Source of the DNA: a bacterium
GTDB taxonomy: Bacteria; Patescibacteriota; Andersenbacteria; UBA10190; CAIZMI01
Direction: 5' to 3'
Length of the DNA: 64,000 nt
Assembly: GCA_030647555.1 (NCBI GenBank)
Contig: JAUSJG010000013.1
Span: forward strand, 12,086-76,085
Part shown: in pieces, positions 346 to 63,579 of the stretch
Layout: each line of letters opens with the position of its first letter
Numbering within the stretch: the first letter of the stretch is position 1
Translations under genes and position numbers: made by a program
The notes under the pieces: generated by a model
The model's database searches: none
Told to the model about the DNA's origin: nothing
What the model saw: only the letters and a program-made list of their open reading frames with translations

Positions 346-495
346 AAAAGCGCGTCCTTGCGAGGCCACCTATGAGGCGGCCGAAGCAATCTCACGTTGT
401 AATTTTTGGGGATTGCCGCGCCTCGCGCATTTTAAAAAATGCGCGATGGCTCCAGCCGTCACCAAGGTTATGGCCGGCAGGCGCAATGACTGCGG

Positions 496-7427: not shown

Positions 7428-7473
7428 TTGTTCGCGTATTCCTATTTCATCAATCATCATTCATAATCACCTT

Positions 7474-8190: not shown

Positions 8191-8198
8191 ATGAAATA

Positions 8199-28351: not shown

Positions 28352-28519
28352 TGTCAATTAACAAAGCTTTAGCGAAGTGGGGGGTGTTTTCTGAAATTTA
28401 GTACATTTTTTTCATGCGATTGTCGTTTCAGTTTTTCTATAACAAGATAGAAAAACTGAAACGAGTAGGTGTAAAGAAGTTTTAAAATATATTAGGGATT
28501 CTCCTGATTGGAAGTTGTA

Positions 28520-29057: not shown

Positions 29058-30131
29058 ATGGTAAAAAAATCTTTACAAACAGAACGAGCAAAGGCGGCAG
29101 CTTTGGCTGTCGAGCAGATTAAAGAGCGTTTTGGCGATGGTTCGATTATGCTTCTTTCGGAAGCACGAAAAGTAGATGTTGATGTTATTCCAACGGGCTC
29201 AATTTCGCTTGATTTGGCGCTAGGCGTCGGCGGTATTCCTCGTGGCCGTATTATCGAGGTCTATGGTCCGGAAAGCTCCGGTAAAACCACGCTGGCGCTA
29301 CATATGATTGCCGAAGCCCAAAAGAAGGGTGGGATTGCGGCCATTGTGGACGCGGAACACGCGATGGATCCAAACTATGCCGGTAAAATCGGCGTTAAAA
29401 TGGATGAGTTATTAATCTCTCAGCCGGATAATGGTGAGCAAGCCCTGGAAATTGTAGAGACGCTAATTTCGAGTAATGCTGTTGATATTATCGTTGTCGA
29501 CTCGGTCGCAGCCTTAACCCCGCGCGCGGAAATTGAAGGAGAAATGGGTGATTCTCACATGGGCCTACATGCTCGCTTGATGAGTCAAGCGTTACGCAAA
29601 ATTACCGCTATTGTTGCCAAATCAAAAACAACGGTTATTTTTATTAATCAGATTCGGATGAATATCGGGGTGATGTTTGGCAATCCGGAAACGACAACGG
29701 GTGGTAAGGCGTTGAAGTTTTATTCCTCCGTGCGTTTGGAAGTACGTCGTCGCGCGCAAATTAAAAAAGACGAAAAAATTATCGGTAGTCGTACTGTGGT
29801 GAAGGTTGTAAAAAATAAAGTGGCGGCGCCGTTCCAATCCACGGAATTCGATATTATGTACAACGAGGGAATCAGTCGCCAAGGGGATATTGTGGACACG
29901 GGTGTTCGGTTTAATGTTTTGCAGAAATCCGGTTCTTGGGTTTTGTATCATGAAGTAAAAATGGGCCAAGGGCGCGAGCAAGCCAAGCAATTTTTGCGAG
30001 AAAATCCGGAATTAGCCAAAGAAATTGAAGGCGCGATTATGACGGCCGCCGCGGCGCAAGAAGAGCAAGCTACGCAAGCATCCGCTCGTCCGGAAGACGA
30101 AGATGAGGACGAAACACCGGCACCGGTCTAA
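29058..30131 (+). CDS. recA: Recombinase RecA
   Basis: GPESSGKTT Walker A, L1/L2 loops, full-length conservation. Confidence 0.97.
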
Positions 30132-31366: not shown

Positions 31367-31867
31367 TTAAAAAGGGATATCTTCGATTCGTATTTCTTCT
31401 TCTGCCGGGGCTGCCGGGGGAACTGTTGGTTGTGCCGGCGTAACGGGGACCTCTGTCGGTGCCGCGGGAACTTCGTTGTTCATTTCATGCGGTGCCGTGA
31501 TTGCCGCGTTTTGTCCTTGCGCGCTACCCGCTGGAGAACCGAGAAAAATGATATTATCGGCGATAATTTCCGTACGGTAGCGCTTGAGATTGTCTTGCGT
31601 GCCGACCCAACTGCGGGTTTGCAAATAACCTTCGACGTAAATTTGTTTACCCTTAGTAAGATATTGTTTTATAATGTCCGCCAATTTCCGCCAAGCGACA
31701 ATATTGTGATATTCGGTTTGCGATTGCGTTGCGCCGGCGGCATCTTTCCATTGGCGGTTTGTAGCAACGCTAAAAGTAGCGACAGTTAATCCTGTCGGGG
31801 TAGTACGGACTTCCGGGTCTTGCGTGAGGCGACCGATAAGCTGAACTTTGTTGAGGTCTTTTGACAT
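31367..31867 (-). CDS. ssb: Single-stranded DNA-binding protein
   Basis: OB-fold N-terminus, acidic DIPF C-terminal tail. Confidence 0.9.
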   Translation of the reverse strand: MSKDLNKVQLIGRLTQDPEVRTTPTGLTVATFSVATNRQWKDAAGATQSQTEYHNIVAWRKLADIIKQYLTKGKQIYVEGYLQTRSWVGTQDNLKRYRTEIIADNIIFLGSPAGSAQGQNAAITAPHEMNNEVPAAPTEVPVTPAQPTVPPAAPAEEEIRIEDIPF

Positions 31868-32452: not shown

Positions 32453-32605
32453 AAATCCCAATGACCAAACCCCAATGTCCAACAAAACTTCAAAATCTTA
32501 ATGACCAAAATGACACTTCTTTGGGATTTTAGAAATTAGAATTTTGTTGCCTGCCGGCCGAAGCTTTAGCGAAGGCTGGGTCATTGGGATTTGGAGTTTG
32601 GAGTT
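32453..32605. repeat. cccaatgaccaa-family long hairpin with nested ~30-bp insertion (ctgccggccgaagctttagcgaaggctggg)
   Basis: Arm sequence shared; aagctttagcgaag also at 28366-28379. Confidence 0.55.
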
Positions 32606-36079: not shown

Positions 36080-36212
36080 AATTTGAAATTTGAAATTTTT
36101 AATTTGAAATCAATTTGAAAGATATAAATTTGAAATACCGAAAACAGCGTTTTCAAATTATGATATTAAATTATTTCAAATTGATTAAAAATTTCAAATT
36201 TCAAATTAAAAA
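36080..36212. repeat. Long AT-rich hairpin, near-identical to 8056-8190
   Basis: Direct alignment. Confidence 0.65.
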
Positions 36213-36297
36213 TTGGGTTGTCTTTATCTGACAACAAAGTTGTATTACATAAAATGGCTAATATGAGCCATAAATAGAGCGGGTAAATACCCTCCTA

Positions 36298-37964: not shown

Positions 37965-38000
37965 CCGTTGAATCTCACCCGAGGTTCAACGGTTTTTTTT
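37965..38000 (+). terminator. Intrinsic terminator ccgttgaatctcacccgaggttcaacgg + T8
   Basis: Hairpin and T-run. Confidence 0.6.
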
Positions 38001-38056
38001 GATTTTCTTCGCGAAGAAAATCAATCCCCCATAGCTCATCAGAGCGACGGGGGATG
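38001..38056. repeat. Variable palindrome gattttcttcgcgaagaaaatc + canonical 34-bp CAT element
   Basis: Identical CAT element to 28318-28351. Confidence 0.65.
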
Positions 38057-38145
38057 TTTCTTCATCAATCAGCGTCATGTACCCTACGTCACAACCCTTG
38101 TAATTGTCGTCTGGTAGTGTTACATTATTAAGAAGGAAAGACTAT

Positions 38146-38592: not shown

Positions 38593-38600
38593 AAAGTTTT

Positions 38601-38639
38601 ATCAGGGACCGTCCCCGGCGTGCGGGCACGGTCCCAGAT
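38601..38639. repeat. Palindromic element family 2 (atcagggaccgtccccggcgtgcgggcacggtcccagat)
   Basis: Related to 3406-3444. Confidence 0.65.
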
Positions 38640-38778
38640 AAAACCTTGATTTTGTGTTGCTTTAGTGCTATCTTTAATTAGTTGCTAGAAATGTTTTTTG
38701 GTATTAGAAAAGGAGACGATCTATAAATCAAAGGAGTGCCTGAAGTGATGGAATGTTTCAGAAGTAATTTCAAAAGGG

Positions 38779-39145: not shown

Positions 39146-41488
39146 ATGAGTATTTTACCAAGAGAAAACGAAGCCTATATAGAAGAGGCCGGCGCGGGCC
39201 AAGTCGATCGTGAATTTTTGTTGGCCAAGGCCGAACAAGGAATTAGAGCTTATTTAACGGAACAAAAGGATAAAGGAAATATTGCAGAAAATTACTACAA
39301 GATTGCTCTGGACGGTGTCTTGCCGAATTTACGCGCTTGGTATTTGGATAATTCATTAGATTTGGCTGATCGAAATTTGCGCAACGGTGTTACAAAAGCG
39401 ATTGAATCGGCCAAATGGGAAGAGCTGGTAAATACTTATATTCGTCGGGCTTCTTTTAGTGCGACCGGTGGATTACGGGCTTTGATGGCGTCCGATAAAG
39501 ACTCGATTTTGGCTTTGCAAAAAGACGGCTTGGAAGCGGATTATTTGAAAGGTCCGGCCACGATTAACGATGTGGTTGTGGCATTGACGGCACTGGGTGC
39601 CGCGCGTTATGGCAAAACCAAAGGTTTTAAAAAATTGATTGTCGGTTGTGATAGTCGGGTGCGTGGTGAAGATTTTGCCTGGTTGGTAGCAAAGGTATTT
39701 TTAGCGCATGACTACGAAGTCTATATTTTTGATGAGCCTTGCATGTATCCAAACATTTGTTATGCCGTGCCGACTCTAAAAGCGGATGTGGGAATATTTA
39801 TTTCCGCCAGTCACAACGATTATCGCTATAACGGTTTCAAAATTACGGCCCCGCATGGCGCTTCGTTAGAAATGACCGTGCGCGACGAAATGTTTGATAA
39901 TTTTATCAATAAAACCGTTCCGGCCGATATTAAATTGGCGGAGTTAAAACAAGTGCCGAAAGAGAAACTTTGGTTTCTTGGTGGTGAAACAACAGAGCAA
40001 GTTTTTGCCGACGGTGAAAATAAAGGCTTTCCAGTTGGAAAACCGCGCGAAGGTATTAACTATCTTGGGCGCGAAGATCAGATTCTCAACATCCACCTCT
40101 TGCACGTTGCACAAGTGAAAAAGTTTATGCAGAATATTGATTTGTTAAAAAATCAAAAAGACAATCCGCGCAGACTTTCCGTCGCCTATAGCGCTAATCA
40201 TGGGTCGGGACGGCGCATTGTGCCCTGGCTTTTGCAAGAAGTGGGCGTGGTTGATCTAAAGGTAATTCATCGTTTCAGTGATTTAAATGGATTGTTCCCG
40301 GCGTTTTGCAGTGATCCTGGTAAGGAACAACAACCCGACCCGGGTGACGATCGTGCGGCAAAAGTCGCGGTCGACGCTTTTAAAGATGAATATCCGGACG
40401 CTTGGAAAGATTTGGATATTTTAATTTCTACCGATCCTGATGCCGATCGTAGCGGATTGGTGGTAAAAGTACCGGAGCATTTGCAGAAATACTATGATGG
40501 AAAAGATTATGTATTATTGCCGGCGGATGACGCGTGGCTATTGGTAATTTGGTATATGTTGGAACAGGAAAAACTTAAATATGGCGCGGTGCGCGACGCG
40601 GAAACAAAATATGTTAGTCTCACGCACACCACCAACGAGATGATTGCGCGGGTGGCACGAAAATATGGACTGGGAGTTGTTTATACTTGGGTGGGTTTTG
40701 TGATGTTGGGAAGTGCCGCTCGCTACGTTTGGGATAATAAGTCCGTACCACCAATCGAAGAGGGTCGCTTGGATGTGAATAATCCAAAGTGTCATTCGTT
40801 TTTCTACAAAGCGACGGATATGGCGACAGGAAAACGCGTCTTTAATGTCGCGGCCGCTGAACAAAGCGCGGGGATGTCGATTTTTGGTGGTGTGCCAAAA
40901 TCGAATCGCGATTTGGGCGAAGGCGGTCATGTGCGTGATAAAGATGGTACTTTTGCGTCGCTCTTATTAACTGAACTGGCGGCATACGCCAAAGATAAAG
41001 GCTTGAATCTCTTGGAGATTATGAACCAGATGTATTTGGATCCGGCGATTGGGATGTTTGTAAATTATTACGAAGCTGATCCGATGGATGGTGCTTATCC
41101 TGGACTTCGTGGTGATACACACAAACGAGATGTTTTGATGTCTGCGATAAAATTGCACGAAGATGTACAGGCCGGTAAACCAGTTGTGTTTGGCGGTATG
41201 CCGGTAAAATCCAGTATCGCATTTTGGACAGGTAAGTATGATAAAGCCAACTGGGTAGGTTTTCCGGATGAAGGTTTGCGTTTCTACTTTGACGATGAAA
41301 AAATGAGTAGCTTCATCTTGCGTCCGTCCGGCACGGCCAATGCCATCCGGTTGCACGTTTTGCTGCAAGAAAAAGGCGAACTCAACGAAGGAAATGTGAA
41401 CGAAAAACGCGTGGCATTACTCAAGAAAGCCAAAGAGATCATCGATGATGTTCGTAATCAGATTGGCGCCTCTAGGGATTTTGTGTAA
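39146..41488 (+). CDS. Phosphohexomutase (phosphoglucomutase/phosphomannomutase family), unusually long (780 aa)
   Basis: Active-site region ISASHNDYRYNGFKI (TASHNP-like), GGLRA motif. Confidence 0.75.
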   Translation: MSILPRENEAYIEEAGAGQVDREFLLAKAEQGIRAYLTEQKDKGNIAENYYKIALDGVLPNLRAWYLDNSLDLADRNLRNGVTKAIESAKWEELVNTYIRRASFSATGGLRALMASDKDSILALQKDGLEADYLKGPATINDVVVALTALGAARYGKTKGFKKLIVGCDSRVRGEDFAWLVAKVFLAHDYEVYIFDEPCMYPNICYAVPTLKADVGIFISASHNDYRYNGFKITAPHGASLEMTVRDEMFDNFINKTVPADIKLAELKQVPKEKLWFLGGETTEQVFADGENKGFPVGKPREGINYLGREDQILNIHLLHVAQVKKFMQNIDLLKNQKDNPRRLSVAYSANHGSGRRIVPWLLQEVGVVDLKVIHRFSDLNGLFPAFCSDPGKEQQPDPGDDRAAKVAVDAFKDEYPDAWKDLDILISTDPDADRSGLVVKVPEHLQKYYDGKDYVLLPADDAWLLVIWYMLEQEKLKYGAVRDAETKYVSLTHTTNEMIARVARKYGLGVVYTWVGFVMLGSAARYVWDNKSVPPIEEGRLDVNNPKCHSFFYKATDMATGKRVFNVAAAEQSAGMSIFGGVPKSNRDLGEGGHVRDKDGTFASLLLTELAAYAKDKGLNLLEIMNQMYLDPAIGMFVNYYEADPMDGAYPGLRGDTHKRDVLMSAIKLHEDVQAGKPVVFGGMPVKSSIAFWTGKYDKANWVGFPDEGLRFYFDDEKMSSFILRPSGTANAIRLHVLLQEKGELNEGNVNEKRVALLKKAKEIIDDVRNQIGASRDFV

Positions 41489-41495
41489 AGCGTTT

Positions 41496-41599
41496 GTCTT
41501 TGCGAGCCATCGACCATTCCTTAGAATGGGCGAGGCGTGGCAATCTCCAAAATATAACTATCACGAGATTGCGTCGGCGCAGATGCGCCTCGCAAAGAC
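41496..41599. repeat. gcgagccatcgacc-family palindromic element (gtctttgcgagccatcgacc ... cctcgcaaagac); copies 61641-61769 and in-frame in uvrC 52702-52799
   Basis: Shared ends and internal ccatcgaccat..gggcgaggcg motif. Confidence 0.6.
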
Positions 41600-44450: not shown

Positions 44451-45263
44451 TGTTGGCCCGCCTTTTTTCTTAAAATTCTTTTCCGGGCGTCGGGAGTTAG
44501 TACGATTTGGTTGTGTGCGGGGGCCGTTGCCGACGGGGGCCGTATTTTGATGTGGTGTCGCATTTTGGCGCACCGGTCCGCGTTGGGTGTGTTGCGGTTT
44601 GTGTGGTCGGTTAAAATTCTTGGGACCACGATTGTCACGATTTTTTTGGGGCACCGGCCCGTTATTTTTCCCTGGAATACTTGGTACTGCTGGGGGTGCG
44701 AAACTTGCTGTAAACATTCTATCTATAAAATAAAAAAATTAATCTGTACAAAACGGTTTTTCGGTGGATGTAAGGCAAAAAATTATCGCCAAACTGATCT
44801 ACCCTAGAAGCAAGGGTGAAACAACTCTAGAGAGCTGTGAGGCAGTGTTACCACGTGCCGTAAGGAATATAAATTCCTTAAGTACTTTGATAGTGTAACA
44901 TGGCGCGATAATTTTGTCAAAAATGATCATTTTTTATTAGTCAGTGAGAAGCTCCGAGACTCGGCGCTTTCGAGCGCCTAGAGTCTCGGAGTTCTTCGAT
45001 TCTTGTGCAAAACGACTCAACAGGATGTTGAATCGTTTTGTGTACATTTTATAGTTTCGCAAAGCGAAACAAATCTCGAGTGCCGAGGGCGGGAGTTGGT
45101 CACAAATAAATTTTCTGACGAAAATTTTTCGCGACCCCCGCTCGCGGTTTTTGCCTTGCCCTGCGGGGCAAACAAAAACATCGCTGCGCGTTTCAAATCC
45201 CCCGCAACACAAGCAGTTGTGTTGCGGTTTAGCACCATTAAAAGGCTCAGAAAAGCCTTTTAA

Positions 45264-45351
45264 TGGTGCCGAGGGCGGGATTTGAACCCGCAAGCCCTTA
45301 CGAGCACTACGACCTGAACGTAGCGTGTTTGCCAATTTCACCACCCCGGCT
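45264..45351 (-). tRNA. tRNA-Leu (anticodon CAG), class II with long variable arm, CCA encoded
   Basis: Manually folded: acceptor GCCGGGG, anticodon loop TTCAGGT, T-loop GGTTCAAATCC, 3' CACCA. Confidence 0.75.
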
Positions 45352-46970: not shown

Positions 46971-47012
46971 CCGATCACGGAACGGAGCAACCTTGCTCCG
47001 TTCCGTGATCGG
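46971..47012. repeat. Palindromic element family 1 (ccgatcacggaacggagcaa-cc-ttgctccgttccgtgatcgg); supplies the last ~12 codons and stop of the HepT gene
   Basis: Overlap of palindrome with 3' end of ORF 46975-47439. Confidence 0.65.
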
Positions 47013-47439
47013 TGTTGGTCGCCACTACCTTGCTGATTATTTGCACGAATTGTTCAAGATCTCCCAAATTGTTTTGGAGGTTTTCGTATACTATTTCCGG
47101 ATCAACGTCCAAATAATCGTGGACCAAGACATTGCGGAAACTTTTCGCTTTTGTCAGTTTGACAGCGAGTTCTTCGGACAAGATTCCCGAGTTTGCCAAT
47201 ATTTCAAATTCACTATTTTTTTCGCCGGGCTTTTGTAATTTGTTTTCAATTATTAAATAACGCGCGATATCAACAACGGTCTCCAGTCCTGTTTGGAACA
47301 GGCGTTCCACCGAAAGTTCGTTGCGTTCATCGGCAAAGTATTCGTTTTTCGACAGCGCTTGGTATTTTTTCAGCTTTTCCAGTGTTTCTTCCAGCGAGGA
47401 TAATTTATTGACGACTATTTCTTTAGTTATTTCAGTCAT
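46975..47439 (-). CDS. HepT-like HEPN (DUF86) toxin; C-terminus read through a palindromic element
   Basis: RNVLVHDYLDVDPEIVY Rx4HxY motif. Confidence 0.7.
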   Translation of the reverse strand: MTEITKEIVVNKLSSLEETLEKLKKYQALSKNEYFADERNELSVERLFQTGLETVVDIARYLIIENKLQKPGEKNSEFEILANSGILSEELAVKLTKAKSFRNVLVHDYLDVDPEIVYENLQNNLGDLEQFVQIISKVVATNTDHGTEQGCSVP

Positions 47440-47443: not shown

Positions 47444-47890
47444 TTATGATGCGGTTAAATTGTTTAAGAAAGATTGGTTGTAAAGTTTCAGAAAATCTTT
47501 TTGGTCGTCGTATTCACGTAAAACCGCCATCTCGAATTTTACGCGTTCTCCATGTTCTTTTTCCGCTAGAACAATACCTTCACTGATCACCGCCATCCGC
47601 AAAGCGAGCGGGGCTTGGTTGAGTACGGAAATATCCAGCGCTTCTGTTGGTACATCAAAAATTTTTCCAATTATTTCGTGCGCGATTAAACGCGCGTCAA
47701 ACTGTGTCTGTTTTGAAGCATTGGGATCCAAAAATAAGGCGATGTCGATATCGCTTTCCTCATGTATGTCGCCGGAAACGGCGGAACCGAAAATATAGGC
47801 AAACAAAATCGGAAGGCCGGCCATTTCTTTTTCGGCCAGTTTGTTTAAATCGTCTGTGACAGTAATTTTCTTCGCGCCAAAGCGTTTCAT
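47444..47890 (-). CDS. Nucleotidyltransferase (MNT-type antitoxin)
   Basis: FGSAVSGDIHEESDIDIAL motif; 4-nt gap to HepT. Confidence 0.75.
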   Translation of the reverse strand: MKRFGAKKITVTDDLNKLAEKEMAGLPILFAYIFGSAVSGDIHEESDIDIALFLDPNASKQTQFDARLIAHEIIGKIFDVPTEALDISVLNQAPLALRMAVISEGIVLAEKEHGERVKFEMAVLREYDDQKDFLKLYNQSFLNNLTAS

Positions 47891-48540: not shown

Positions 48541-48770
48541 CGCGACCACCTCGGTCGCGATTTTTTTATTGCCCATCGGAATGGGCAATAATCCCCCTTA
48601 GCTCATCAGAGCGACGGGGGATGTTGCCTTGTTTTGTATCGATTATATCGATACAAACGGAAGATTGCTTACACGAAATCGGTGACCGACCCTGACCGCA
48701 GGGACGGTCCCCGATTAACTTCTCAAATCCTTATACTATATACCAAATACCATATACAAATCTAAATACA
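48541..48770. repeat. Repeat nest: terminator repeat (48541-48567), palindrome attgcccatcggaatgggcaat + CAT element (48569-48623), TGTATCGATTATATCGATACA (48635-48655), family-2 palindrome (48678-48715), gtatat-family fragment (48721-48770)
   Basis: Five different repeat families juxtaposed within 230 bp. Confidence 0.65.
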
Positions 48771-51675: not shown

Positions 51676-51715
51676 GTGGGTATTATACACCAAACATGCG
51701 AAAAATTTTCAATAA

Positions 51716-51830
51716 TCAATTTCCAATTATCAATGAATTATCAATTAACTAATTTTCAATGACGACGCCGAATTGAAAATTGGAATTTGATCATTAATTG
51801 ATAATTGGCCATTGAAAATTGATACTTATA
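51716..51830. repeat. AT-rich hairpin (caataatcaatttccaattatcaatgaattatcaatta...), related to 9290-9425
   Basis: Inverted arms. Confidence 0.45.
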
Positions 51831-51832: not shown

Positions 51833-53872
51833 CTATCTTCTTAAAAATTCTATTAATATCTCTGTTTTTTTAGAACCTAATATTTTTTCTAATTCTTCAA
51901 CTGTTGCTGCTCTGATTCCGGCCAATGATCCAAATGCGCGGAGTAACTTTTTGCGAGTGCCTGGTCCAATGCCCGGAATTTCTTCGAGGATTGATTTTGT
52001 CATTCGCTTTTTTCGAAGGAGGCGGTGATAACTGATTGTGAATCGGTGCGCTTCGTCGCGCATCCGTTGCATTAAATAAAAAGCGGGGGAAGTACGATCG
52101 AGGATGATTGAAGAAGAATTTTTTGTGGTAAAAATTTCTTCTTCTCGTTTGGCGAGAGAAATTAATGGGATCTTTAAATCAAGTTCAGTAAAAAGTTTAT
52201 TGATCGTATTTAATTGCGGTTTGCCACCGTCGAGAACAATCAGGTCAGGTAGAGGCCAGCGCGATTTTTCCTCCCTTGATAAAGGGAGGCGGGGAGGGAT
52301 TTTGTTATTGGGCCGCGAAATCTCCCTTGTTCCCCCTTTATCAAGGGGGAGACGGCTCTTAAATCTTCGTGTCAGTGTTTCCCGCATCATTCCTACATCG
52401 TTTGGTTCACCGTCGTTGATAATTTTAAATTTGCGATATTCCGATGGCACGGATTTTCCGTCGATGAAAACCACCATCGAAGCGGTCGCCAATTTTCCTT
52501 GAATGTTTGAAATATCATATGTCTCAATTCGTTTTGGTAGGGTTGGAAGATTCAACTTTTCCTGTAGGTCGGTAATACTCTTGAGTAAATTTTGGGGACT
52601 TTGTAATTCTGTTTCAGAACGGTTCAATGATTCTTGGGCATTTGTATTTGCCATGTCGATTAACTGTTTTTTCCAGCCACGTTCTGGAAATTTGATAGTC
52701 AGTCTTTGCGAACCCCGCCCTTGGCGGGGTGAAGCAATCTCGTCGGCGTTTTGAATCGGGGGATTGCTTCGCCTCACTGCGGTGATGGCTCGCAATGACG
52801 ACGACGGTGTCGGCAAATAAATAATCTTTGCTCCTCCTTGTGCTGTCGGTAAATATTGCGCTAGAAATTCTTCCCAAATGTCTTTTTCTTCTTTCTTGTC
52901 CGGTAAAAGCAATGGGAAAATTTGTCGTCCAATAATCCGACCTTGGCGTAATTGCAGAAGGGCGATACTGCCATGACCGCCACGGTGCGCCAAACCAAAC
53001 ACATCCGCATTTTCATTTCTTGTTGTGATCACGTCCTGTGGAATCATTGTTTGCTGAATCGCTTTAATCCGGTCGCGTAAAGCGGCGGCTTTTTCGTAAT
53101 GTTGTTGTTCACTTAGCTCATTCATTCGTTCAGTTATTGCACCAAGTACTGCATCAGTATCGCCATCCAAAAACTTTTTTAAGCGGACGAAATTGTTTTG
53201 GTATTCTTCGAGGCTAATCGCGCCGACACAAATTCCCGGGCACAAACCGATGTGATAGGCGAAACAGGGACGACGTAATCCCTCCCGCGCTGGCACCCCC
53301 TCAAACGTCCGCTGGACGTTCTTGGTGGCCCCGCCTCCCTTTGGAAAAAGGGAGGGGACGCCAACGCTTCCCTCCTTTTTCCAAAGGAGGGCGGGGGTGG
53401 ATTTTCCCGGGTCAGGATATCCGCACCAAGGAAAAAACTTTCGCGCTTCTTTTAATGTCTGTCGTACCGCTCGAGAATTTGGATAAGGGCCACGATACCA
53501 CGCACCATCCGTTGCAACTTTTCGTTCCAAAGAAACTTTTGGATAGGCTTCATTAGAAATCCTTACGTATAGATAAGATGAATCATCAACCAAGCGCACA
53601 TTATATGGTGGTCGGTGTTTATGGATTAGCGTGCCTTCCAATACCAGGGCTTCCGTTTCATTTTTTACAATTATTGTCTCAACCGAAAAAGCGAGCTTCA
53701 CCATCTCGACCTTGAGTGGTTCAAGTCGAGTTGGTGCAAAATATTGGGCGACACGTTTCTTTAGTGATTTCGCTTTGCCAATATAAAGGATCGCGCCTTT
53801 GGCGTCTTTAAATTGGTAAACACCGGGTAAGTCGGGAAGGTTTTTGGCTTGATTTTTTAATTCATTTTCCAT
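51833..53872 (-). CDS. uvrC: Excinuclease ABC subunit C (UvrC), ~70-100 aa longer than typical owing to three in-frame palindromic insertions
   Basis: GIY-YIG (GVYQFKD...ILYIGKA), RPCFAYHIGLCPGIC, ENDO V/RNaseH-like and C-terminal HhH domains. Confidence 0.9.
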   Translation of the reverse strand: MENELKNQAKNLPDLPGVYQFKDAKGAILYIGKAKSLKKRVAQYFAPTRLEPLKVEMVKLAFSVETIIVKNETEALVLEGTLIHKHRPPYNVRLVDDSSYLYVRISNEAYPKVSLERKVATDGAWYRGPYPNSRAVRQTLKEARKFFPWCGYPDPGKSTPALLWKKEGSVGVPSLFPKGGGATKNVQRTFEGVPAREGLRRPCFAYHIGLCPGICVGAISLEEYQNNFVRLKKFLDGDTDAVLGAITERMNELSEQQHYEKAAALRDRIKAIQQTMIPQDVITTRNENADVFGLAHRGGHGSIALLQLRQGRIIGRQIFPLLLPDKKEEKDIWEEFLAQYLPTAQGGAKIIYLPTPSSSLRAITAVRRSNPPIQNADEIASPRQGRGSQRLTIKFPERGWKKQLIDMANTNAQESLNRSETELQSPQNLLKSITDLQEKLNLPTLPKRIETYDISNIQGKLATASMVVFIDGKSVPSEYRKFKIINDGEPNDVGMMRETLTRRFKSRLPLDKGGTREISRPNNKIPPRLPLSREEKSRWPLPDLIVLDGGKPQLNTINKLFTELDLKIPLISLAKREEEIFTTKNSSSIILDRTSPAFYLMQRMRDEAHRFTISYHRLLRKKRMTKSILEEIPGIGPGTRKKLLRAFGSLAGIRAATVEELEKILGSKKTEILIEFLRR
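52258..52345. repeat. GGGAGG-type palindromic element in-frame in uvrC (encodes ...SRLPLDKGGTREISRPNNKIPPRLPLSREEKSR...)
   Basis: Inverted arms ctcccttgataaagggagg / ccccctttatcaaggggg; insertion between conserved MRETLTRRF and PDLIVLDGGK. Confidence 0.65.
52702..52799. repeat. gcgagccatcgacc-family element in-frame in uvrC
   Basis: Reverse complement aligns with 61641-61769 ends (cgtcattgcgagccatc...cgcaaagac). Confidence 0.55.
53290..53415. repeat. GGGAGG-type palindromic element in-frame in uvrC between WC..D and RPCF Cys motif (encodes ...PGKSTPALLWKKEGSVGVPSLFPKGGGATKNVQRTFEGVPAREG)
   Basis: Long inverted arms ccgcctccctttggaaaaagggagg / cctcctttttccaaaggagggcgg. Confidence 0.65.
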
Positions 53873-53892: not shown

Positions 53893-54027
53893 AAAATGAC
53901 CAATGACCAATACTCAATGGCCACTCAATTATTAAATGATTTAATGTCCAATTTTGAATCCGTGTTTAGTGTCTATTAGTTAATTGGTTATTGAGTGGTC
54001 ATTGGCCATTGGGATTTGGTCATTCGT
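53893..54027. repeat. cccaatgaccaa-family long hairpin upstream of uvrC
   Basis: Arm similarity. Confidence 0.5.
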
Positions 54028-54668: not shown

Positions 54669-57530
54669 ATGGCAAATGTTATCACCATCCGCGGGGCGCG
54701 CGTTCATAACTTAAAAAACGTCGATGTAACCATTCCACGCGACAAGCTGGTGGTTATCACCGGACTCTCGGGTTCCGGTAAATCTTCTCTCGCTTTTGAT
54801 ACACTTTACGCGGAAGGGCAACGTCGTTATGTTGAATCGCTTTCCGCTTACGCTCGGCAGTTCTTGGGTTTGATGGACAAACCGGACGCCGACCAAATTG
54901 ACGGGCTAAGTCCGGCAATTTCCATCGATCAAAAATCCGGGACACGCAATCCGCGTTCTACGGTAGGTACTGTTACAGAAATTTACGATTATCTTCGTTT
55001 GCTTTTTGCCAGAACCGGTGTCCCGCATTGTCCGCAGTGTGGAAAGATGATTCGTCGTCAAACAATCAAGGAAATTACCGATCAGATTTTGAATTTGCCG
55101 GACGGCTCAAACATTATGGTGTTGGCGCCCAAGATTCGCGACCGCAAAGGTGAGCACAAACAAATTTTCAAAGAAATTGAACAGCAGGGTTATGTGCGCG
55201 CTCGTGTCGACGGCTCGGTTTATGATTTGCAAGAAGCGCAACAATTGGAATTGGATAAACAAAAAAAGCATTCTATTGAGGTTGTGATCGATCGCTTGTT
55301 AATTGATAAGCGCAACTTGGATCGTCCGCGCATTGCCGACTCGGTAGAAACAGCAACCCGTATTGGTGGGGGCATTGTGATCATCGAAGATCGCACCGCG
55401 AAAAAAGATTTTGTTTATTCTGAACAATTTGCTTGTTCGGATTGTGGGATCAGTTTGACCGAAGTGGAACCAAGAATGTTTTCGTTTAATAGTCCGCACG
55501 GCGCGTGTCCGGCTTGTACCGGTCTTGGTACGCAATTGGAAGTAAACGAAGAACTTGTAATTCCTAATCGCAAATTAACTTTGGCCGAAGGCGCCATTAA
55601 ACCGTGGAGTCGCCGGATGCGTGGCAGTTCATGGGCGATGTGGATTTTGGAAGCAGTGGCTAAAAGAAACCATTTTTCGTTGGATGTGCCGGTTAGTAAG
55701 TTATCGGAAGAAGTAATGGAAATTATTATGTTTGGTATGGGTGACGAAAAAATCACTGTGAAAACCGAAGAGGGTACGACGATGGAAACAAAATTTGAAG
55801 GTGTGGTTCCCAATTTGATGCGTCGCTACAAAGAAACGGATTCGGATTATGCCAGAAGCGAAATCGAGCGTTATATGGTGAGCAAGCCCTGTCCGGTTTG
55901 CAAAGGGAAGCGTCTTAAGCCGGAATCATTAAGCGTTTTCTTGGCCGGAAAAAATATGCACGAAGTTGTGTCATTAACTATCGCTGATAACTACAAACTC
56001 TTTTCTGATCTCGCGCAAAACCCGAAATCACACGAAACTTTTGGTCCACGTGAGCAAATTATCGGCAAGCAGGTATTACTGGAAATTCGTGCTCGCTTGA
56101 AGTTTTTACTCGACGTCGGTTTGGATTATCTGACTTTAGATCGTTCGGCCGCCACATTGGCCGGCGGTGAAGCGCAACGGATTCGTTTAGCCACACAAAT
56201 TGGTTCCGGTCTCGTTGGGGTGCTTTATATTTTGGACGAACCGTCAATTGGTTTGCATCAACGCGATAATTCGCGCTTGATTGGCACATTGAAAACTTTG
56301 CGTGATTTGGGTAACTCGGTAATTGTTGTGGAACACGACGAAGAGATGATTCGTAATGCGGATTATGTGATTGATGTCGGGCCGGGCGCCGGTGAACACG
56401 GCGGGCAAATTGTTTTCGCGGGAACGGCGAAAGCATTGGAAAAATCCAACACGCTTACCGGCAAATATCTCGCCGGAAAAATGGAAATTCCTGTGCCGAA
56501 GAAAAAGCGCGCCGGAAATGGAAAGACATTGGTCATCAAAGGCGCGACCGAACACAATTTACAAAACGTCGATGTAAAAATTCCGTTGGGTAAATTTGTT
56601 TGCGTGTCCGGTGTTTCCGGTTCCGGAAAATCGACATTGATTAACGATATTCTCTCGAAGGTCTTGGCCAAAGAATTCTACGGGGCCAAAGATTTGCCGG
56701 GTAAACACGATAGTGTTCAAGGTCTGCAAAATCTCGACAAAGTAATTATGATTGATCAATCGGCAATTGGTCGCACCCCACGCAGTAATCCTGCCACATA
56801 TACCGGCGTCTTTACCGCGATTCGCGAATTGTTTTCGGCCACTCCGGAAGCAAAAGTGCGCGGTTATGATGCCGGACGTTTTTCTTTCAATGTACGTGGT
56901 GGTCGTTGTGAAACCTGTCAGGGTGACGGAGTGATTCGGATTGAAATGCAATTTTTACCGGACGTTTACGTGGAGTGCGAAGAGTGTCACGGTAAACGTT
57001 ACAATCGCGAAGCGTTGGATATTCTTTATAAAGGAACAACGATTGCGGAAATTTTGAATATGACGGTGGAACGGGCGCACGAATTTTTCCGTGCTATTCC
57101 GGCGATTGAATCGAAATTGGCCGTGCTTGAACAAGTTGGTCTTGGCTATGTCCACTTGGGTCAACCGGCGACGCAACTTTCCGGTGGTGAAGCACAGCGC
57201 ATTAAATTGGCCACAGAACTTTCCCGTCGCGCCACCGGTAAAACAATTTATATTTTGGATGAACCGACAACGGGTTTGCATTTCGATGATGTCCGTAAAT
57301 TGTTAACTGTTTTGCATGCGTTGGTCGACAAAGGTAATTCTGTTTTAGTCATCGAACACAATCTCGATGTTCTTAAAGCGGCCGATTGGATTATTGATTT
57401 GGGCCCGGAAGGTGGAAACAAAGGCGGAGAAATTATCGCCGAAGGTACGCCGGAAGAAGTATCACGCGTGGCGAAGAGTTACACAGGGCAGTATTTGAAG
57501 GGGATGCTGGGGAAGAAAAAGACAAAATAA
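54669..57530 (+). CDS. uvrA: Excinuclease ABC subunit A (UvrA)
   Basis: Two ABC ATPase modules ([14 protein letters not shown]; [13 protein letters not shown]), zinc fingers. Confidence 0.97.
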
Positions 57531-57660
57531 ATCCCAATTTCCAAATCCCAAAACCCAACAAAATCCCAAAATCATAATGACCAAAACGGTTAGTCTTTGG
57601 AATTTAGGTGATTAGGATTTTGTTGGACATTGGTCATTGGGGTTTGGGTTTTATTACCAA
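57531..57660. repeat. cccaatgaccaa-family long hairpin after uvrA
   Basis: Arm similarity. Confidence 0.55.
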
Positions 57661-58932: not shown

Positions 58933-59703
58933 ATGGCGAATCGTGACTTGTTCCGGGAAATCGTCGAGTCTTTGATTGTGCCGGCCAGCGAAGGTGTGGG
59001 TGACGCGGCTGAAAATCTGCTTCGGCTGTGCGCGAATGCGCGACCGGAAGCGGTTGAGGCGCTGGGCGACGTCGTTGAACTCGAAGTGCTGCTTTCGGCC
59101 ATCGAGGGCTACAAACAGCGCCAGGTTTTCGGAGGTTCAGGCGAAGCACAGGCTGAGATTCCGGAAGAGCTTGCCAGGGACGACGACGAGTTCATGAGCA
59201 CTCGGCAAGCGGCCCGGTTGTTGCGCGAAAAGGGACGGCCGAATTTCGCCACAACGGTTGGTCAACTGGAAGAACTGATCCACACCGACCAGGCGCGCGA
59301 GTTGGTTAATCTTCTGCACACGGTCGGTCAGATCCAAGAACTACAGATTCCCTGGGGACTGAAGTTCTCGAGCTACCTCAATGAGGCTGCGGAACGGATC
59401 GTTACCCGCTTGTTGCAACTTGTGGTCGAGTGGATGGAGGATGGCGCCAAACAGGACGCTTCCCGGCTGGCTCGCGATTTCGGTGAAGTCGGACTGGCGG
59501 CCGTCCAGCGGCTGATCAAGGCAGGTCGGCTCCCATTTCGGGTCGAAACCTATATGGGGCCGGATGCCCTGGATAGGGTTCGCTCGGCGGCCAATCAACC
59601 GATCGCGTTGCGCTGCGCTTTGCTCGGGGTGGAGTATCACGAGCGGAGTGTCAGTCGGTGCGAGAGCCCGCGTGCGGATCGTCGCGAGATGGCCCCCGCG
59701 TAG
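58933..59703 (+). CDS. Hypothetical protein, GC-rich (start MANRDLFREIV, RBS aaagga)
   Basis: ORF with RBS and terminator; atypical composition. Confidence 0.5.
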   Translation: MANRDLFREIVESLIVPASEGVGDAAENLLRLCANARPEAVEALGDVVELEVLLSAIEGYKQRQVFGGSGEAQAEIPEELARDDDEFMSTRQAARLLREKGRPNFATTVGQLEELIHTDQARELVNLLHTVGQIQELQIPWGLKFSSYLNEAAERIVTRLLQLVVEWMEDGAKQDASRLARDFGEVGLAAVQRLIKAGRLPFRVETYMGPDALDRVRSAANQPIALRCALLGVEYHERSVSRCESPRADRREMAPA

Positions 59704-59725
59704 GTTGGTCAAGTGGGGTAGAGTC

Positions 59726-59759
59726 ACGGGTGTTCACGCGAAGTGGCACCCGTTTTTTT
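59726..59759 (+). terminator. Intrinsic terminator cgggtgttcacgcgaagtggcacccg + T7
   Basis: Hairpin and T-run. Confidence 0.5.
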
Positions 59760-59780
59760 GTTCAAAAAATAGGGTACGCT

Positions 59781-60848
59781 ATGTGTGTGGAAACTAATAA
59801 TTTAAAAATCGAACAAGCGATTCTTGCCACGCTGGCCTACCACGATATTTTGAATATGCCGTTAACGGCGACCGAAATTTGGCGGTATTTGTTTAGAGAA
59901 CAACCAATCAGGGACCGACCCTGCATACAGGGACGGTCCCTGATTGGCGCATCGCTTACGGAAACAGAAAACATACTTAAGAATTTGTACAAATTTAATG
60001 AAATCGAATTTCATTCAGGCTACTACTATTTCCTCGAACGACAAGATTTAGTTGAAAAGCGTCTAAAAATGCACGCGTTGGCGCAAATTAAGTGGAAACG
60101 GTTGCGACGCATCGTTTGGTTTTTGCAGGCGATTCCTTTTTTGGAGATGGTGGCGGCGAGCGGCTCGCTTGCCCGCGAGTTTACGCATAAAGATAGTGAT
60201 CTGGATGTTTTGTTGGTTACAAAAGCGGGTAGGATTTGGACCGTGCGGTTTATTGTGACGGTAATTTTGGACTTGTTTCACTTGCGCCGGCGTCCGACAG
60301 GACCCACCCGTGACCTGGTTTGTTTGAATCATTATTTGGCACAGGACGGTTTAGCGCTTCCGTATCAAAGTTTATATACCGCTTTGGAGTATGCGCATAT
60401 CGTCCCACTCATTGGTGATAAAGTTTGTGCGGAATTTCGGGAAGCGAATAGAGAATGGATTGAGAAATATTTGGTACGTTTATTGCCCGATGAAATTGAT
60501 AATCTTAAACAAGTGCGAAAATCCTTTTTTCTTTCGGGGATTAAAAAAATAGTTGAGCTTTTGTTGTGCGGTATGGTTGGCGACGCACTAGAAGAGTGGT
60601 TAGGAAAAAGACAGAAAGAGAGAATTGTAAAAAACGAGGAAAATGCGACGGCGGGCGGTCGGATCGTGGCCAGTCCATTGCATTTGGAGTTTCATCCGCA
60701 CAGCAAAGAAGCGCCGTTGCTGAAAAAGTTTAATGAGAAAATGGCGGAAATGGGATTGGACGCGTTTGGTGGGCAAAAAGATTCCGGCTTGACAAAAAAT
60801 GCAAACGGATATATGATCCCGACATCCTCGGATGCCGACCCGCCGTAA
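59781..60848 (+). CDS. Nucleotidyltransferase-superfamily protein (Pol-beta-like GS...DSDLDVLLV) with N-terminal wHTH-like region; carries in-frame family-2 palindrome
   Basis: GSLAREFTHKDSDLDVLLV motif; start at MCVETNN. Confidence 0.5.
   Translation: MCVETNNLKIEQAILATLAYHDILNMPLTATEIWRYLFREQPIRDRPCIQGRSLIGASLTETENILKNLYKFNEIEFHSGYYYFLERQDLVEKRLKMHALAQIKWKRLRRIVWFLQAIPFLEMVAASGSLAREFTHKDSDLDVLLVTKAGRIWTVRFIVTVILDLFHLRRRPTGPTRDLVCLNHYLAQDGLALPYQSLYTALEYAHIVPLIGDKVCAEFREANREWIEKYLVRLLPDEIDNLKQVRKSFFLSGIKKIVELLLCGMVGDALEEWLGKRQKERIVKNEENATAGGRIVASPLHLEFHPHSKEAPLLKKFNEKMAEMGLDAFGGQKDSGLTKNANGYMIPTSSDADPP
59907..59944. repeat. Palindromic element family 2 inside ORF 59781-60848 (encodes QPIRDRPCIQGRSLIG)
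   Basis: atcagggaccgaccctgcatacagggacggtccctgat read directly in coding frame. Confidence 0.7.
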
Positions 60849-61632: not shown

Positions 61633-61640
61633 AGCATCGT

Positions 61641-61769
61641 CATTGCGAGCCATCGACCATCCTTTGGGATGGGCGAGGCGCGGCAATCCCCTAAATGATA
61701 TGACGCGGGAGATTGCCCGCCCTGCAGGGCGAGGCTCGCCCAGATGGGCGGCTTCGGGCTCGCAAAGAC
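61641..61769. repeat. gcgagccatcgacc-family palindromic element in groES-groEL spacer
   Basis: Aligns with 41496-41599. Confidence 0.6.
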
Positions 61770-63469: not shown

Positions 63470-63553
63470 GGTTTGCACCAAGTGCAAACCGCAACCCCGT
63501 ACTGAACATCAGTTCTAGTACGGGGTAAGCGCGAAACAAAGGGTTATACGTGT

Positions 63554-63579
63554 AGGGGCAATTCATGAATTGCCCCTAC
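63554..63579. repeat. Palindrome ggggcaattcatgaattgcccctac (within gtaggggcaattcatgaattgcccctac hairpin) after groEL; identical 26-mer inside femAB
   Basis: Exact match to 8361-8386. Confidence 0.7.

What the first reader, a model, noticed from the sequence alone, without database searches (positions are those of the whole stretch)
51833..53872. uvrC carries three in-frame palindromic-element insertions (RPE-like)
The predicted UvrC is 679 aa. About 100 residues of that are encoded by three palindromic elements lying inside the ORF.

The first, at 53290-53415, is a GGGAGG-type element with about 25-bp inverted arms. It sits between the conserved W-C...D and RPCFAYHIGLCPGIC Cys motifs. The usual spacing there is about 12 aa, and here it is about 45 aa.

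The second, at 52702-52799, belongs to the same family as the intergenic elements at 41496-41599 and 61641-61769.

The third, at 52258-52345, is GGGAGG-type and lies between MRETLTRRF and PDLIVLDGGK.

The two GGGAGG copies encode similar peptides, L(P/F)xxKGG...RWPLP and LWKKEGSVGVPS. All three preserve the reading frame. That implies selection for tolerated peptide insertions, as reported for Rickettsia palindromic elements.
Basis: partly seen in the sequence, partly recalled or inferred. Interest (0 to 1): 0.7.

Follow-up and report, generated by a model that had tools for sequence, protein, structure and literature searches.

The report
Palindromic repeat insertions inside uvrC
A DNA-repair gene (uvrC) of an uncultivated, probably Parcubacteria-like bacterium has absorbed several small hairpin-forming repeat elements without losing its reading frame; they are read as floppy, neutrally evolving loops, a known phenomenon (as in Rickettsia) seen here in a new host with different, very widespread repeat families.

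Summary
uvrC (51833-53872, minus strand, 679 aa) carries three GC-rich palindromic inserts (55-64% GC against 42% for the rest of the gene) at 53277-53405, 52702-52799 and 52270-52352. The closest insert-free orthologue (P0003, 604 aa) lacks all three, and across 118 orthologues these loops are normally short. An AlphaFold2 model places the inserts in low-confidence, mostly coil segments. One lies between the first two cysteines of the Fe-S motif (C-X52-C here; published consensus C-X6-14-C).

Since the split from a relative that shares elements 1 and 3, the UvrC core has dN/dS 0.07 and the insert peptides 0.96. The gene works, and the peptides are tolerated rather than selected.

Refinements. 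Element 1 is a composite: a hairpin doublet plus a third module. Element 3 is an inverted pair of the same ~35-nt hairpin unit. That unit occurs across many phyla, is usually open in all six reading frames, and lies in long ORFs in about half of the sampled copies. Element 2 belongs to a globally widespread cloverleaf-like family (GTCATTGCGAG...CTCGCAATGAC). Relatives carry different elements at the same four UvrC loops. No transposase was found.

Verdict: RPE-like in behaviour, not an RPE by family; a new member of a known kind.

The parts
51833..53872 (-). uvrC ORF, 679 aa. It is intact, and the catalytic positions are conserved: Y30, G32, K33, R40, E79, N91 (GIY-YIG domain) and D453, D548, H609 (DDH triad).
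   Evidence: These residues are invariant columns in the 118-sequence alignment A2. Core dN/dS is 0.07 against P0002.
53277..53405 (-). Element 1, a composite of 129 nt (43 codons) encoding residues 156-199. It lies between Cys150 and Cys203 of the Cys-rich Fe-S motif and closes on the termini AAAATCC...GGGATT.
   Evidence: The C150-C203 spacing is 52 aa against a clade median of 13 and a published consensus of C-X6-14-C (PMC10085695).
53370..53405 (-). Element 1, family-B unit in the (+) orientation: AAAATCCACCCCCGCC-CTCCTTT-ggaaa-AAGGAGGG.
   Evidence: Exact match to the unit signature; perfect hairpin at 53370-53391.
53329..53357 (-). Element 1, family-B unit in the (-) orientation: CCCCTCCCTTT-ttcc-AAAGGGAGGCGGGG.
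   Evidence: Perfect hairpin at 53334-53355; it forms the 23-nt inverted-repeat arm pair I5 with the (+) unit.
53287..53321 (-). Element 1, module 3: GAACGTCC-agc-GGACGTT hairpin followed by GAGGGGGTGCCAGCGC. This is a separate module nested inside the composite.
   Evidence: It is unique in the window. The same module lies inside a different insertion (site 4) of relative P0004. P0004 has the hairpin doublet at site 1 without this module. There is a compensatory G:C to A:T change in P0002 and P0004.
52702..52799 (-). Element 2, a family-A element of 98 nt encoding residues 358-391, inside the first RNase H-like domain (PF22920). It folds as a cloverleaf-like junction: terminal stem, two side hairpins and a central GCAATC/GATTGC stem.
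   Evidence: (z = -6.9).
52270..52352 (-). Element 3: two family-B units facing outward, unit(-) at 52318-52352 and unit(+) at 52270-52303, around a 14-nt spacer. It encodes residues 507-535 in the catalytic RNase H-like endonuclease domain, 13 residues upstream of D548.
354..490 (+). Intergenic family-A copy, 137 nt, ending 6 nt from the stop codon of uvrB.
41496..41599 (+). Intergenic family-A copy, 104 nt, starting 8 nt after a stop codon.
   Evidence: z = -7.2.
61639..61769 (+). Intergenic family-A copy, 131 nt, starting 7 nt after a stop codon and upstream of the groEL-like gene.
   Evidence: (z = -6.0).

Best explanation
uvrC has been invaded, at different times, by small non-autonomous palindromic repeat elements of at least three sequence types.

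- Family B is a hairpin unit of about 35-45 nt: AATCC-C(4-5)-(A/C)GCC-CYCCTTT-loop-AAAGGRGG. It is present here as an inward-facing doublet (element 1) and an outward-facing pair (element 3).
- Family A is a 74-146-nt cloverleaf-like palindrome with termini GTCATTGCGAG...CTCGCAATGAC (element 2).
- A third hairpin module is nested inside element 1.

Shown. The inserts are absent from the closest insert-free orthologue. They are much more GC-rich than the gene. They belong to multi-copy families found elsewhere. They sit in four loops that are short in most orthologues and variable in length across the clade. They keep the frame. They are predicted to be low-confidence, mostly coil segments. The host gene has stayed under strong purifying selection since the insertions, while the insert peptides drift neutrally.

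Inferred.
1. The elements arrive as DNA, through an enzyme acting in trans or through hairpin-mediated recombination or gene conversion between copies. No such enzyme was identified.
2. Only insertions that preserve the frame, lack stop codons and land in permissive surface loops survive. This explains both the repeated use of the same loops and the retention of families that are open in most frames.
3. The inserts are transcribed and translated as part of UvrC, giving flexible loops rich in Pro, Gly, Lys and Ser.
4. The palindromes are kept more intact than neutral decay predicts, either by constraint at the nucleotide level or by replacement from other copies at the same site.
For: Insertion status.
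- P0003 lacks all three segments. P0002 shares elements 1 and 3 codon for codon. P0004 has other arrangements.
- In 118 orthologues, median loop lengths at the three sites are 13, 27 and 18 aa, against 52, 43 and 38 aa here.
- Solved structures show an insertion of about 29 aa at site 3.

Foreign, repeated DNA.
- GC content is 0.55-0.64 in the elements against 0.417 in the rest of the gene.
- Family A has four copies in the window.
- The family-B signature was found in at least 120 genome loci from many phyla. In 104 of 127 hits the complementary arm follows, and the stem variants co-vary.

Tolerance.
- AlphaFold2 pLDDT is 43-60 in the inserts, against a mean of 85 for the whole model.
- Catalytic residues are invariant.
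- Core dN/dS is 0.069; for elements 1 and 3 together it is 0.955.

Generality.
- About half of family-B units lie in stop-free frames of at least 250 aa, against 75% for random positions in the same loci. All six frames are used.
- The host ORFs tested are real genes: HrpA, urea carboxylase, AddA/UvrD-like helicases, AcrB and MmeI-type enzymes.
- In the urea carboxylase, a doublet fills a gap relative to structure 3VA7.

Nucleotide-level maintenance.
- Elements differ from P0002 at p = 0.27 at both synonymous and non-synonymous sites, against 0.50 at core synonymous sites.
- Compensatory stem changes are seen.
- The window and P0004 carry different family-A variants at exactly the same codon.

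The sequence is not an artefact of one assembly.
Against: - No mobilising enzyme was found. There is no transposase or RAYT among the 30 window ORFs scanned, and no gene family recurs next to 127 family-B units.
- No target-site duplication is recognisable. The empty site in P0003 is too diverged to define the junctions.
- Family B has no copy outside uvrC in this 64-kb window, so activity of that family in this genome is not shown. Two of two copies falling in one 2-kb gene is unexpected for random insertion.
- Translation of the inserts is inferred only from the intact ORF and the selection pattern; there is no protein or RNA data.
- The structure is a prediction. Low pLDDT does not prove that the segments are disordered or surface-exposed.
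- The dN/dS values for the elements rest on only 74 codons.
Confidence: 0.8

Rival explanations
1. The inserts are kept because they do something useful. Either they act as nucleic-acid structures, for example mRNA hairpins that pair an anti-Shine-Dalgarno-like CCUCC with a GGAGG and so pace translation between domains, or DNA sites for a host protein. Or they act as new protein loops that modulate UvrC.
For: - The elements diverge at about half the neutral rate, equally at synonymous and non-synonymous sites.
- Compensatory stem changes are seen.
- The palindromes are still near-perfect although elements 1 and 3 predate a split with dS of about 0.8.
- The family-B unit is conserved across phyla.
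- The same four loops are used repeatedly.
Against: - Peptide dN/dS is about 1.
- The insert-free orthologue P0003 and most relatives lack the inserts.
- Unrelated elements occupy the same loops in sister lineages, which fits permissive sites better than a specific function.
- Copy-to-copy conversion would explain the intact palindromes without any benefit to the host.
Confidence: 0.1
2. The extra segments are native, lineage-specific loops of UvrC and not derived from mobile repeats. Their palindromic look is incidental.
For: These loops vary in length across the clade, and the site-2 and site-3 regions are poorly conserved in general.
Against: - Element 2 has three intergenic relatives in the same window with the same termini and architecture.
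- The family-B unit matches a 21-nt signature found, with its hairpin, across many genomes.
- Fold z-scores are -2.8 to -6.9, and GC content is 13-23 points above that of the gene.
- P0003 lacks all three segments.
Confidence: 0.04
3. The inserts are removed before the protein is made, by an intron-like, intein-like or translational-bypass route, so they never appear in UvrC.
For: They form strong hairpins. Introns are reported to be common in Patescibacteria RNA genes (abstract of bioRxiv 10.1101/2025.07.03.662931, listed).
Against: - No intron or ribozyme family matches, even at permissive thresholds. The only hits are far-sub-threshold matches to miRNA-precursor models, which reflect hairpin shape.
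- The elements are far too small for group I or II introns or for inteins.
- Every version at every site in every relative keeps the frame and has no stop codon. That would be unnecessary if the inserts were excised.
Confidence: 0.03
4. The finding reflects an assembly chimera or a decaying pseudogene.
For: The sequence comes from a metagenome-assembled genome, and palindromes can confuse assemblers.
Against: - A separately assembled Logan contig is identical over 2,738 nt.
- Homologous inserts in P0002 are recorded on 10 contigs.
- The ORF is intact, the catalytic residues are conserved, and core dN/dS is 0.07.
Confidence: 0.02

Closest known systems
Rickettsia palindromic elements (RPEs) and the related protein-coding palindromes of Wolbachia
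   Same: They are short palindromic repeats present both between genes and, in frame, inside conserved housekeeping genes. The insert is tolerated and roughly neutral; the RPE in gmk was reported as neutral or slightly harmful. The sites are compatible with the protein fold, and RPEs come in several families (PMC2229807; PMC10969869).
   Different: - The host is different: a Parcubacteria-like MAG, not Rickettsiales.
- The sequence families look unrelated.
- RPEs are reported as 105-146 bp and specific to Rickettsia. The family-B unit here is about 35-45 nt, and both families here occur across many phyla and on viral contigs.
- One 2-kb gene carries three composite inserts, and relatives carry different elements at the same loops.
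REP sequences and REPINs (REP doublets mobilised by RAYT transposases)
   Same: Family B is a short GC-rich imperfect palindrome with a conserved tail. It occurs as singlets and as inverted doublets separated by a short spacer, and the doublets fold into a long hairpin (element 1). It is multi-copy within genomes (REPIN definition from PMC3116915).
   Different: - REPs and REPINs are by definition extragenic. About half of the sampled family-B units lie in long ORFs.
- There is no GTAG or CGTC tag at the end of the unit (criterion from the abstract of PMC3733652, listed).
- No RAYT was found nearby.
- The same sequence signature is shared across phyla, whereas REPINs are described as co-evolving with their own RAYT.
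Bacterial MITEs with open reading frames found fused in frame (ERIC/RU-1, the 107-bp Correia element, YPAL, QMITE1, Anabaena MITEs)
   Same: They are small non-autonomous elements with terminal inverted repeats and stable stem-loops. Versions that lack stop codons are the ones found inside genes (PMC2229807; PMC10969869).
   Different: - No target-site duplication and no TA termini are seen here.
- No parent insertion sequence with matching ends was identified.
- Family A has a conserved multi-arm junction with variable side hairpins, not a simple long stem-loop.

Membership tests
Rickettsia palindromic elements (RPE) | Host is Rickettsia, and the sequence belongs to one of the RPE families | tested here: not met
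   The best named homologues of this UvrC are Parcubacteria-group MAGs. The elements belong to families found in many phyla. A direct comparison with RPE consensus sequences was not possible, because none was available.
Rickettsia palindromic elements (RPE) | Palindromic repeat of about 100-150 bp that folds into a stable stem-loop with terminal inverted repeats | tested here: met
   The elements are 129, 98 and 83 nt long. Fold z-scores are -5.0, -6.9 and -2.8, with 0 of 200 shuffles folding as well. The basic family-B unit itself is smaller, about 35-45 nt.
Rickettsia palindromic elements (RPE) | Inserted in frame in conserved protein-coding genes, with the host ORF preserved | tested here: met
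   The gene remains under purifying selection, with dN/dS 0.07.
Rickettsia palindromic elements (RPE) | Copies of the same family also lie in intergenic regions | tested here: met
   Family A has three intergenic copies in the window. Family B has none in this window, but about half of the copies in other genomes lie outside long ORFs.
Rickettsia palindromic elements (RPE) | Insertion sites are compatible with the protein fold (surface loops), and the insert is retained in the protein | tested here: inconclusive
   The AlphaFold2 model shows low-pLDDT, mostly coil inserts between confident core elements. The Cys-rich motif is described as protruding from the enzyme core (PMC10085695). Retention of the insert in the protein cannot be tested here.
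REP / REPIN | Short imperfect palindrome occurring as inverted doublets that form a hairpin | tested here: met
   Element 1 is unit(+), spacer, unit(-) and folds as one long hairpin. Doublets are common among the cross-genome hits.
REP / REPIN | Located in extragenic space | tested here: not met
   Both window copies are inside uvrC. 50% of 114 family-B units in other genomes lie in stop-free frames of at least 250 aa, and the hosts tested are real genes.
REP / REPIN | Association with a RAYT (Y1 transposase) gene flanked by the same REP | tested here: inconclusive
   No RAYT or transposase was found among the 30 window ORFs scanned, and no gene family recurs within 3 kb of 127 units. However, only 64 kb of this genome was searched.
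REP / REPIN | GTAG or CGTC tetranucleotide tag at one end of the REP | tested here: not met
   Units begin with AAATCC and end with GGAG or GGGATT. The criterion is from the abstract of PMC3733652.
MITE | Small non-autonomous element with terminal inverted repeats, present in multiple copies | tested here: met
   Family A has 10-11-nt termini, is 74-146 nt long, and gave many copies. Family B has AATCC...GGATT termini. The elements are too short to contain a gene.
MITE | Target-site duplication flanking the element | tested here: inconclusive
   No direct repeat is evident at the borders of the four family-A copies. The empty site in P0003 is too diverged to define the junctions.
MITE | A parent autonomous insertion sequence with matching ends | not tested
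   This needs a whole-genome or database search for insertion sequences ending in GTCATTGCGAG or AATCCCCC. Nothing of the kind lies in the window.
Self-splicing introns / inteins | Ribozyme or splicing-domain signature | tested here: not met
   Rfam gives only a tRNA at the gathering threshold and only far-sub-threshold miRNA-hairpin matches at E <= 1. Pfam finds only UvrC domains. The inserts are 28-43 codons long.

The most novel reading that the evidence does not exclude
The GGGAGG 'element' may be one local example of an undescribed repeat that spans phyla, and possibly domains. The unit is a hairpin of about 35-45 nt (AATCCCCCC-AG-CCCCCCTTT-loop-AAAGGGGGG), and its C-run / TTT / AAA / G-run design leaves all six reading frames open. 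It therefore colonises protein-coding genes almost as readily as intergenic DNA, which would make it a 'coding-compatible REP'. On this reading the palindrome is actively maintained or replaced at fixed intragenic sites, by homing into existing copies or by copy-to-copy conversion, so that some housekeeping proteins, such as UvrC in this Parcubacteria-like clade, carry long-lived hot-spot loops whose content keeps turning over.
Probability: 0.3. Interest if true: 0.7.

Novelty: new member of a known kind. Interest (0 to 1): 0.55.

Why it matters
In-frame residence of palindromic selfish DNA in housekeeping genes is best documented in Rickettsia. This case shows it is not confined to that genus.

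- It occurs in an uncultivated, probably Parcubacteria-like lineage, with three composite inserts in one essential-type repair enzyme. One insert sits between two ligands of the Fe-S cluster motif.
- It recurs, with different elements, at the same four loops across the clade's UvrC proteins.
- It offers a simple rule for which repeats can live in genes: hairpins built from C-runs, G-runs and A/T triplets are free of stop codons in almost any frame.
- The same hairpin unit lies inside unrelated genes in many phyla.

Practical consequences follow. Such inserts inflate protein lengths, break up domain matches and create odd low-complexity loops in MAG annotations and structure predictions. The UvrC loops identified here are also natural permissive sites for protein engineering.

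Tried and rejected
- Known structured RNAs or introns. Rfam at the gathering threshold over the whole window gave only a tRNA. A permissive scan over uvrC gave only meaningless miRNA-hairpin matches.
- Inserts in the other repair genes. UvrB aligns one-to-one with solved structures from residue 125 or so, and its extra 120 aa is an upstream ORF extension. UvrA has a normal length. So uvrC is the only excision-repair gene here with inserts.
- The long PGM-like ORF at 39146-41488 was suspected of carrying inserts, but it has no match among solved structures, so this was dropped.
- A mobilising enzyme. Pfam scans of 30 window ORFs found no transposase or RAYT. Clustering 2,488 ORFs lying near 127 family-B units found only generic families and spurious GC-rich frames.
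- Stem-versus-loop substitution counts between the window and P0002 were unreliable, because the loops differ in length and the alignment was ungapped. I rely on individual compensatory changes instead.
- Literature searches for the translated motifs (PPFAKGG, NPPQPPF and others) and for such repeats in Patescibacteria found nothing. The primary RPE paper, PMC186582, is not held in the library.
- Reaching the rest of the 122-kb contig through the groEL-like gene returned only a 1.9-kb contig, so I could not count copies in the rest of this genome.
- An outer extension of the family-A central stem showed no covariation beyond sequence conservation. Only the inner positions co-vary.
Full report
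THE OBSERVATION

The ORF at 51833-53872 (minus strand) encodes a 679-aa UvrC with all the usual domains: GIY-YIG, UVR, both RNase H-like domains and HhH. The three palindromes are real.

- Element 1 has 23-nt arms that are 91% complementary, at 53329-53351 and 53374-53396.
- Element 3 has perfect 14-nt arms at 52273-52286 and 52334-52347.
- Folded as single strands, the three segments have z-scores of -5.0, -6.9 and -2.8. In each case none of 200 shuffles folds as well.
- Their GC content is 0.55-0.64, against 0.417 for the rest of the gene.
- Exact boundaries from sequence landmarks are 53277-53405 (129 nt, residues 156-199), 52702-52799 (98 nt, residues 358-391) and 52270-52352 (83 nt, residues 507-535).

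ARE THEY INSERTIONS?

A homologue search returned close relatives of very different lengths: 757, 604, 717, 614 and 595 aa. In protein and codon-level alignments:

- P0003 (604 aa, 83% identical in aligned columns) lacks all three segments.
- P0002 shares elements 1 and 3 codon for codon.
- P0004 carries other arrangements.

Among 118 orthologues, the median number of residues between conserved anchors is 13, 27 and 18 at the three sites, against 52, 43 and 38 here. Against solved UvrC C-terminal structures, residues 505 and 535 align to adjacent positions.

The sequence is not an artefact of one assembly. A separately assembled Logan contig is identical over 2,738 nt. P0002 is recorded on 10 contigs.

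WHERE THEY SIT

An AlphaFold2 model built on the 118-sequence alignment has a mean pLDDT of 85. The inserts are the low-confidence, mostly coil segments: residues 160-200 at pLDDT 43-51, 361-390 at 54-60 and 510-540 at 52-58.

- Site 1 lies between the first two cysteines of the Cys-rich Fe-S motif. The published consensus is C-X6-14-C-X3-H/Q-X3-C-X3-C, and the motif is described as protruding from the enzyme core (PMC10085695). Here it reads C150-X52-C203-X3-H-X3-C-X3-C.
- Site 2 is inside the first RNase H-like domain.
- Site 3 is in the catalytic RNase H-like domain, 13 residues upstream of D548.
- The catalytic residues are invariant columns of the alignment.

SELECTION

Elements 1 and 3 predate the split between the window's genome and P0002. 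Since that split, the UvrC core has dN/dS = 0.069 (dS 0.81). The 74 alignable element codons have dN/dS = 0.955. The gene is therefore functional, and the peptides are merely tolerated.

The elements differ at p = 0.27 at both synonymous and non-synonymous sites, whereas core synonymous sites differ at p = 0.50. This points to constraint or homogenisation at the nucleotide level, not the peptide level.

Compensatory changes fit that reading:

- The module-3 hairpin is GAACGTCC/GGACGTT here and GAACATCC/GGATGTT in P0002 and P0004.
- The second hairpin of element 3 is CCTCCC/GGGAGG here and CCCTCC/GGAGGG in P0002, with the loop inverted.

WHAT THE ELEMENTS ARE

Element 2 is a member of what I call family A. 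Four copies lie in the window: 354-490, 41496-41599, 52702-52799 and 61639-61769. The three intergenic copies each lie within 8 nt of a stop codon. All have the termini GTCWTTGCGA(G)/(C)TCGCAAWGAC, a central GCAATC/GATTGC stem and variable side hairpins. They fold as a cloverleaf-like junction with z-scores between -2.4 and -7.2.

The full elements recovered are 74-146 nt, with no bias toward multiples of 3. Positions just inside the central stem co-vary, CA..TG against TC..GA. Family A is strongly depleted from long ORFs: 16% of copies against 56% for random positions.

The GGGAGG 'elements' are built from a smaller unit, which I call family B: AATCC[AC][CT]CCC[AC]GCC[CT][CT]CCTTT-loop-AAAGGRGG. 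Element 1 is unit(+), spacer, unit(-), followed by a separate 35-nt module (53287-53321) and a terminal GGGAGGGATT. Element 3 is unit(-), spacer, unit(+). The 35-nt module recurs inside a different, fourth-site insertion in P0004, and P0004's site 1 has the hairpin doublet without it. Element 1 is therefore a nested composite.

No other family-B hairpin exists in the 64-kb window. The hits come from Pseudomonadota, Desulfobacterota-type MAGs, Acinetobacter, Lysobacter, Luteimonas, Thiobacillus, Geobacter, a cyanobacterium, Nitrospinota, KSB1, Aminicenantes, a Portnoybacteria (CPR) MAG and a Methanoregula MAG. My own rough estimate is that about 17 hits would arise by chance under uniform base composition. 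But 104 of 127 hits are followed by the complementary arm, and the stem variants co-vary, so this is a real family. Twenty-six viral-contig loci also carry it.

GENE TOLERANCE OF FAMILY B

Of 114 units with enough flanking sequence, 50% lie in stop-free frames of at least 250 aa, against 75% for random positions in the same loci. All six frames are used, giving peptides such as NPPQPPFxKGG, IPPSPPFxKGG, SPPAPLxxRG, SPLxxRGAGGD, PPFxKGGLGGI and LPPLxKGGWGG.

Seven of the eight host ORFs scanned against Pfam are clearly real genes: HrpA, urea carboxylase, two AddA/UvrD-like helicases, AcrB and two MmeI-type enzymes. In the urea carboxylase, a doublet fills a gap relative to structure 3VA7. In the AcrB homologue, the unit sits where the alignment breaks after query residue 186.

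The reason is visible in the sequence. C-runs, G-runs, TTT and AAA cannot form stop codons, so only the loop can create one. In uvrC, element 1 is stop-free in 5 of 6 orientation/phase combinations, element 3 in 4 of 6 and element 2 in 2 of 6.

RECURRENT LOOPS AND TURNOVER

Across the clade the same four UvrC loops carry unrelated inserts.

- P0015 has one repeat type at three sites.
- P0059, P0079 and P0099 have family-B-like peptides.
- P0107 and P0049 have family-A-like peptides.

Among the four closest genomes, site 2 holds family A in the window and in P0004, at exactly the same codon but with different interiors. The right half of P0004's copy resembles the window's intergenic copy at 354-490. 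P0002 holds a different hairpin element at that site, and P0003 holds nothing. Either these loops are the only permissive places, so independent insertions accumulate there, or resident copies attract replacement. I cannot separate the two explanations.

MECHANISM

The steps shown are listed above. I infer that the elements enter as DNA, through an enzyme acting in trans or through recombination between copies. I also infer that purifying selection on uvrC removes every insertion that shifts the frame, introduces a stop codon or disrupts the fold.

No mobilising enzyme was found in the window or near the family-B units. No target-site duplication could be recognised. Known RNA families, introns and inteins are excluded as far as the libraries allow.

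COMPARISON WITH KNOWN SYSTEMS

In behaviour this matches Rickettsia palindromic elements and other in-frame MITE fusions (PMC2229807; PMC10969869). It is not an RPE by host or by family. Family B resembles REP and REPIN doublets in form (PMC3116915), but it fails the extragenic criterion and the end-tag criterion, and it has no RAYT in view. I found no description of these two families, or of such inserts in Patescibacteria, in the searchable literature. That library is incomplete, so this is weak evidence of novelty.

VERDICT

It is a new member of a known kind. The broader reading, a cross-phylum hairpin repeat compatible with coding sequence that turns over at fixed loops, is not excluded and would be more interesting.

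Noticed in passing
window 3206-3250, 3404-3448, 7387-7431, 21357-21398, 38599-38643, 48676-48720, 59904-59948: A further palindromic repeat family, ATCAGGGACCG...CGGTCCCTGAT. Two copies are 100% identical (3404-3448 and 7387-7431). The copy at 59904-59948 lies inside ORF 59658-60848, which has only a weak NTP_transf_2 match, upstream of that domain. It may be another in-frame insert, or the ORF start may be mis-set. P0004 carries a CAGGGATCAGGGAC-type sequence at UvrC site 3.
   Followed up: partly
window 51704-51827 and 53895-54024; also 8055-8192, 9292-9424, 20413-20538, 25005-25125, 32453-32549, 36080-36214, 57529-57652: Long AT-rich palindromic blocks built from CCAAT/ATTGG-like or TTGAAA-like words fill many intergenic spacers, including both flanks of uvrC. 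They could be bidirectional terminators, promoter regions or another repeat family.
   Followed up: no
window 5724-6433: Six copies of the palindrome TGTATCGATAT(A/G)TCGATACA flank a Trp-repressor-like ORF (5954-6364). This looks like an operator array.
   Followed up: no
window 3332-3375 and 46971-47012: Two related hairpins with perfect 20-21-bp stems (...GGAGCGGAGCAAGGTTGCTCCGCTCC...). The second overlaps the 3' end of a HepT-like toxin gene (46975-47439), which lies next to a nucleotidyltransferase gene (47444-47890).
   Followed up: no
window 4870-4935, 7316-7356, 28287-28352, 37992-38057, 48559-48624: A repeat made of a T-run, a variable hairpin and a conserved AATCCCCCATAGCTCATCAGAGCGACGGGGGATGT. 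The reverse strand contains CTGATGAGC. It has no Rfam match at the gathering threshold.
   Followed up: no
window 44931-45290: A strongly structured stretch, with perfect hairpins at 45202-45227 and 45232-45269, lies directly beside the only tRNA found (45267-45350, minus strand). The ORF called there (44937-45344) overlaps the tRNA and is probably spurious.
   Followed up: no
window 8361-8382 and 63552-63579: The palindrome GGGGCAATTCATGAATTGCCCC occurs once inside a FemAB-family gene (8199-9284) and once between genes. This may be another small repeat tolerated in a coding region.
   Followed up: no
window 496-2850, 7372-8055, 29058-30131, 31367-31867, 51833-53872, 54669-57530: uvrB, ruvA, recA, ssb, uvrC and uvrA all lie within one 64-kb window. 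Only uvrC carries inserts. The uvrB ORF has an upstream extension of about 120 aa that does not align to any solved UvrB.
   Followed up: partly
window 39146-41488: The phosphoglucomutase-like ORF is 780 aa long, with large gaps between its Pfam domains and no match among solved structures. It may carry insertions or be an unusual fusion.
   Followed up: partly
L003:3001-5154 (relative P0004) and alignment A2 (P0015, P0017, P0018, P0062): A fourth recurrent insertion loop exists in UvrC, between E578 and L591 in window numbering. It is empty in the window (12 aa, the clade median) and holds up to 68 aa in relatives.
   Followed up: partly
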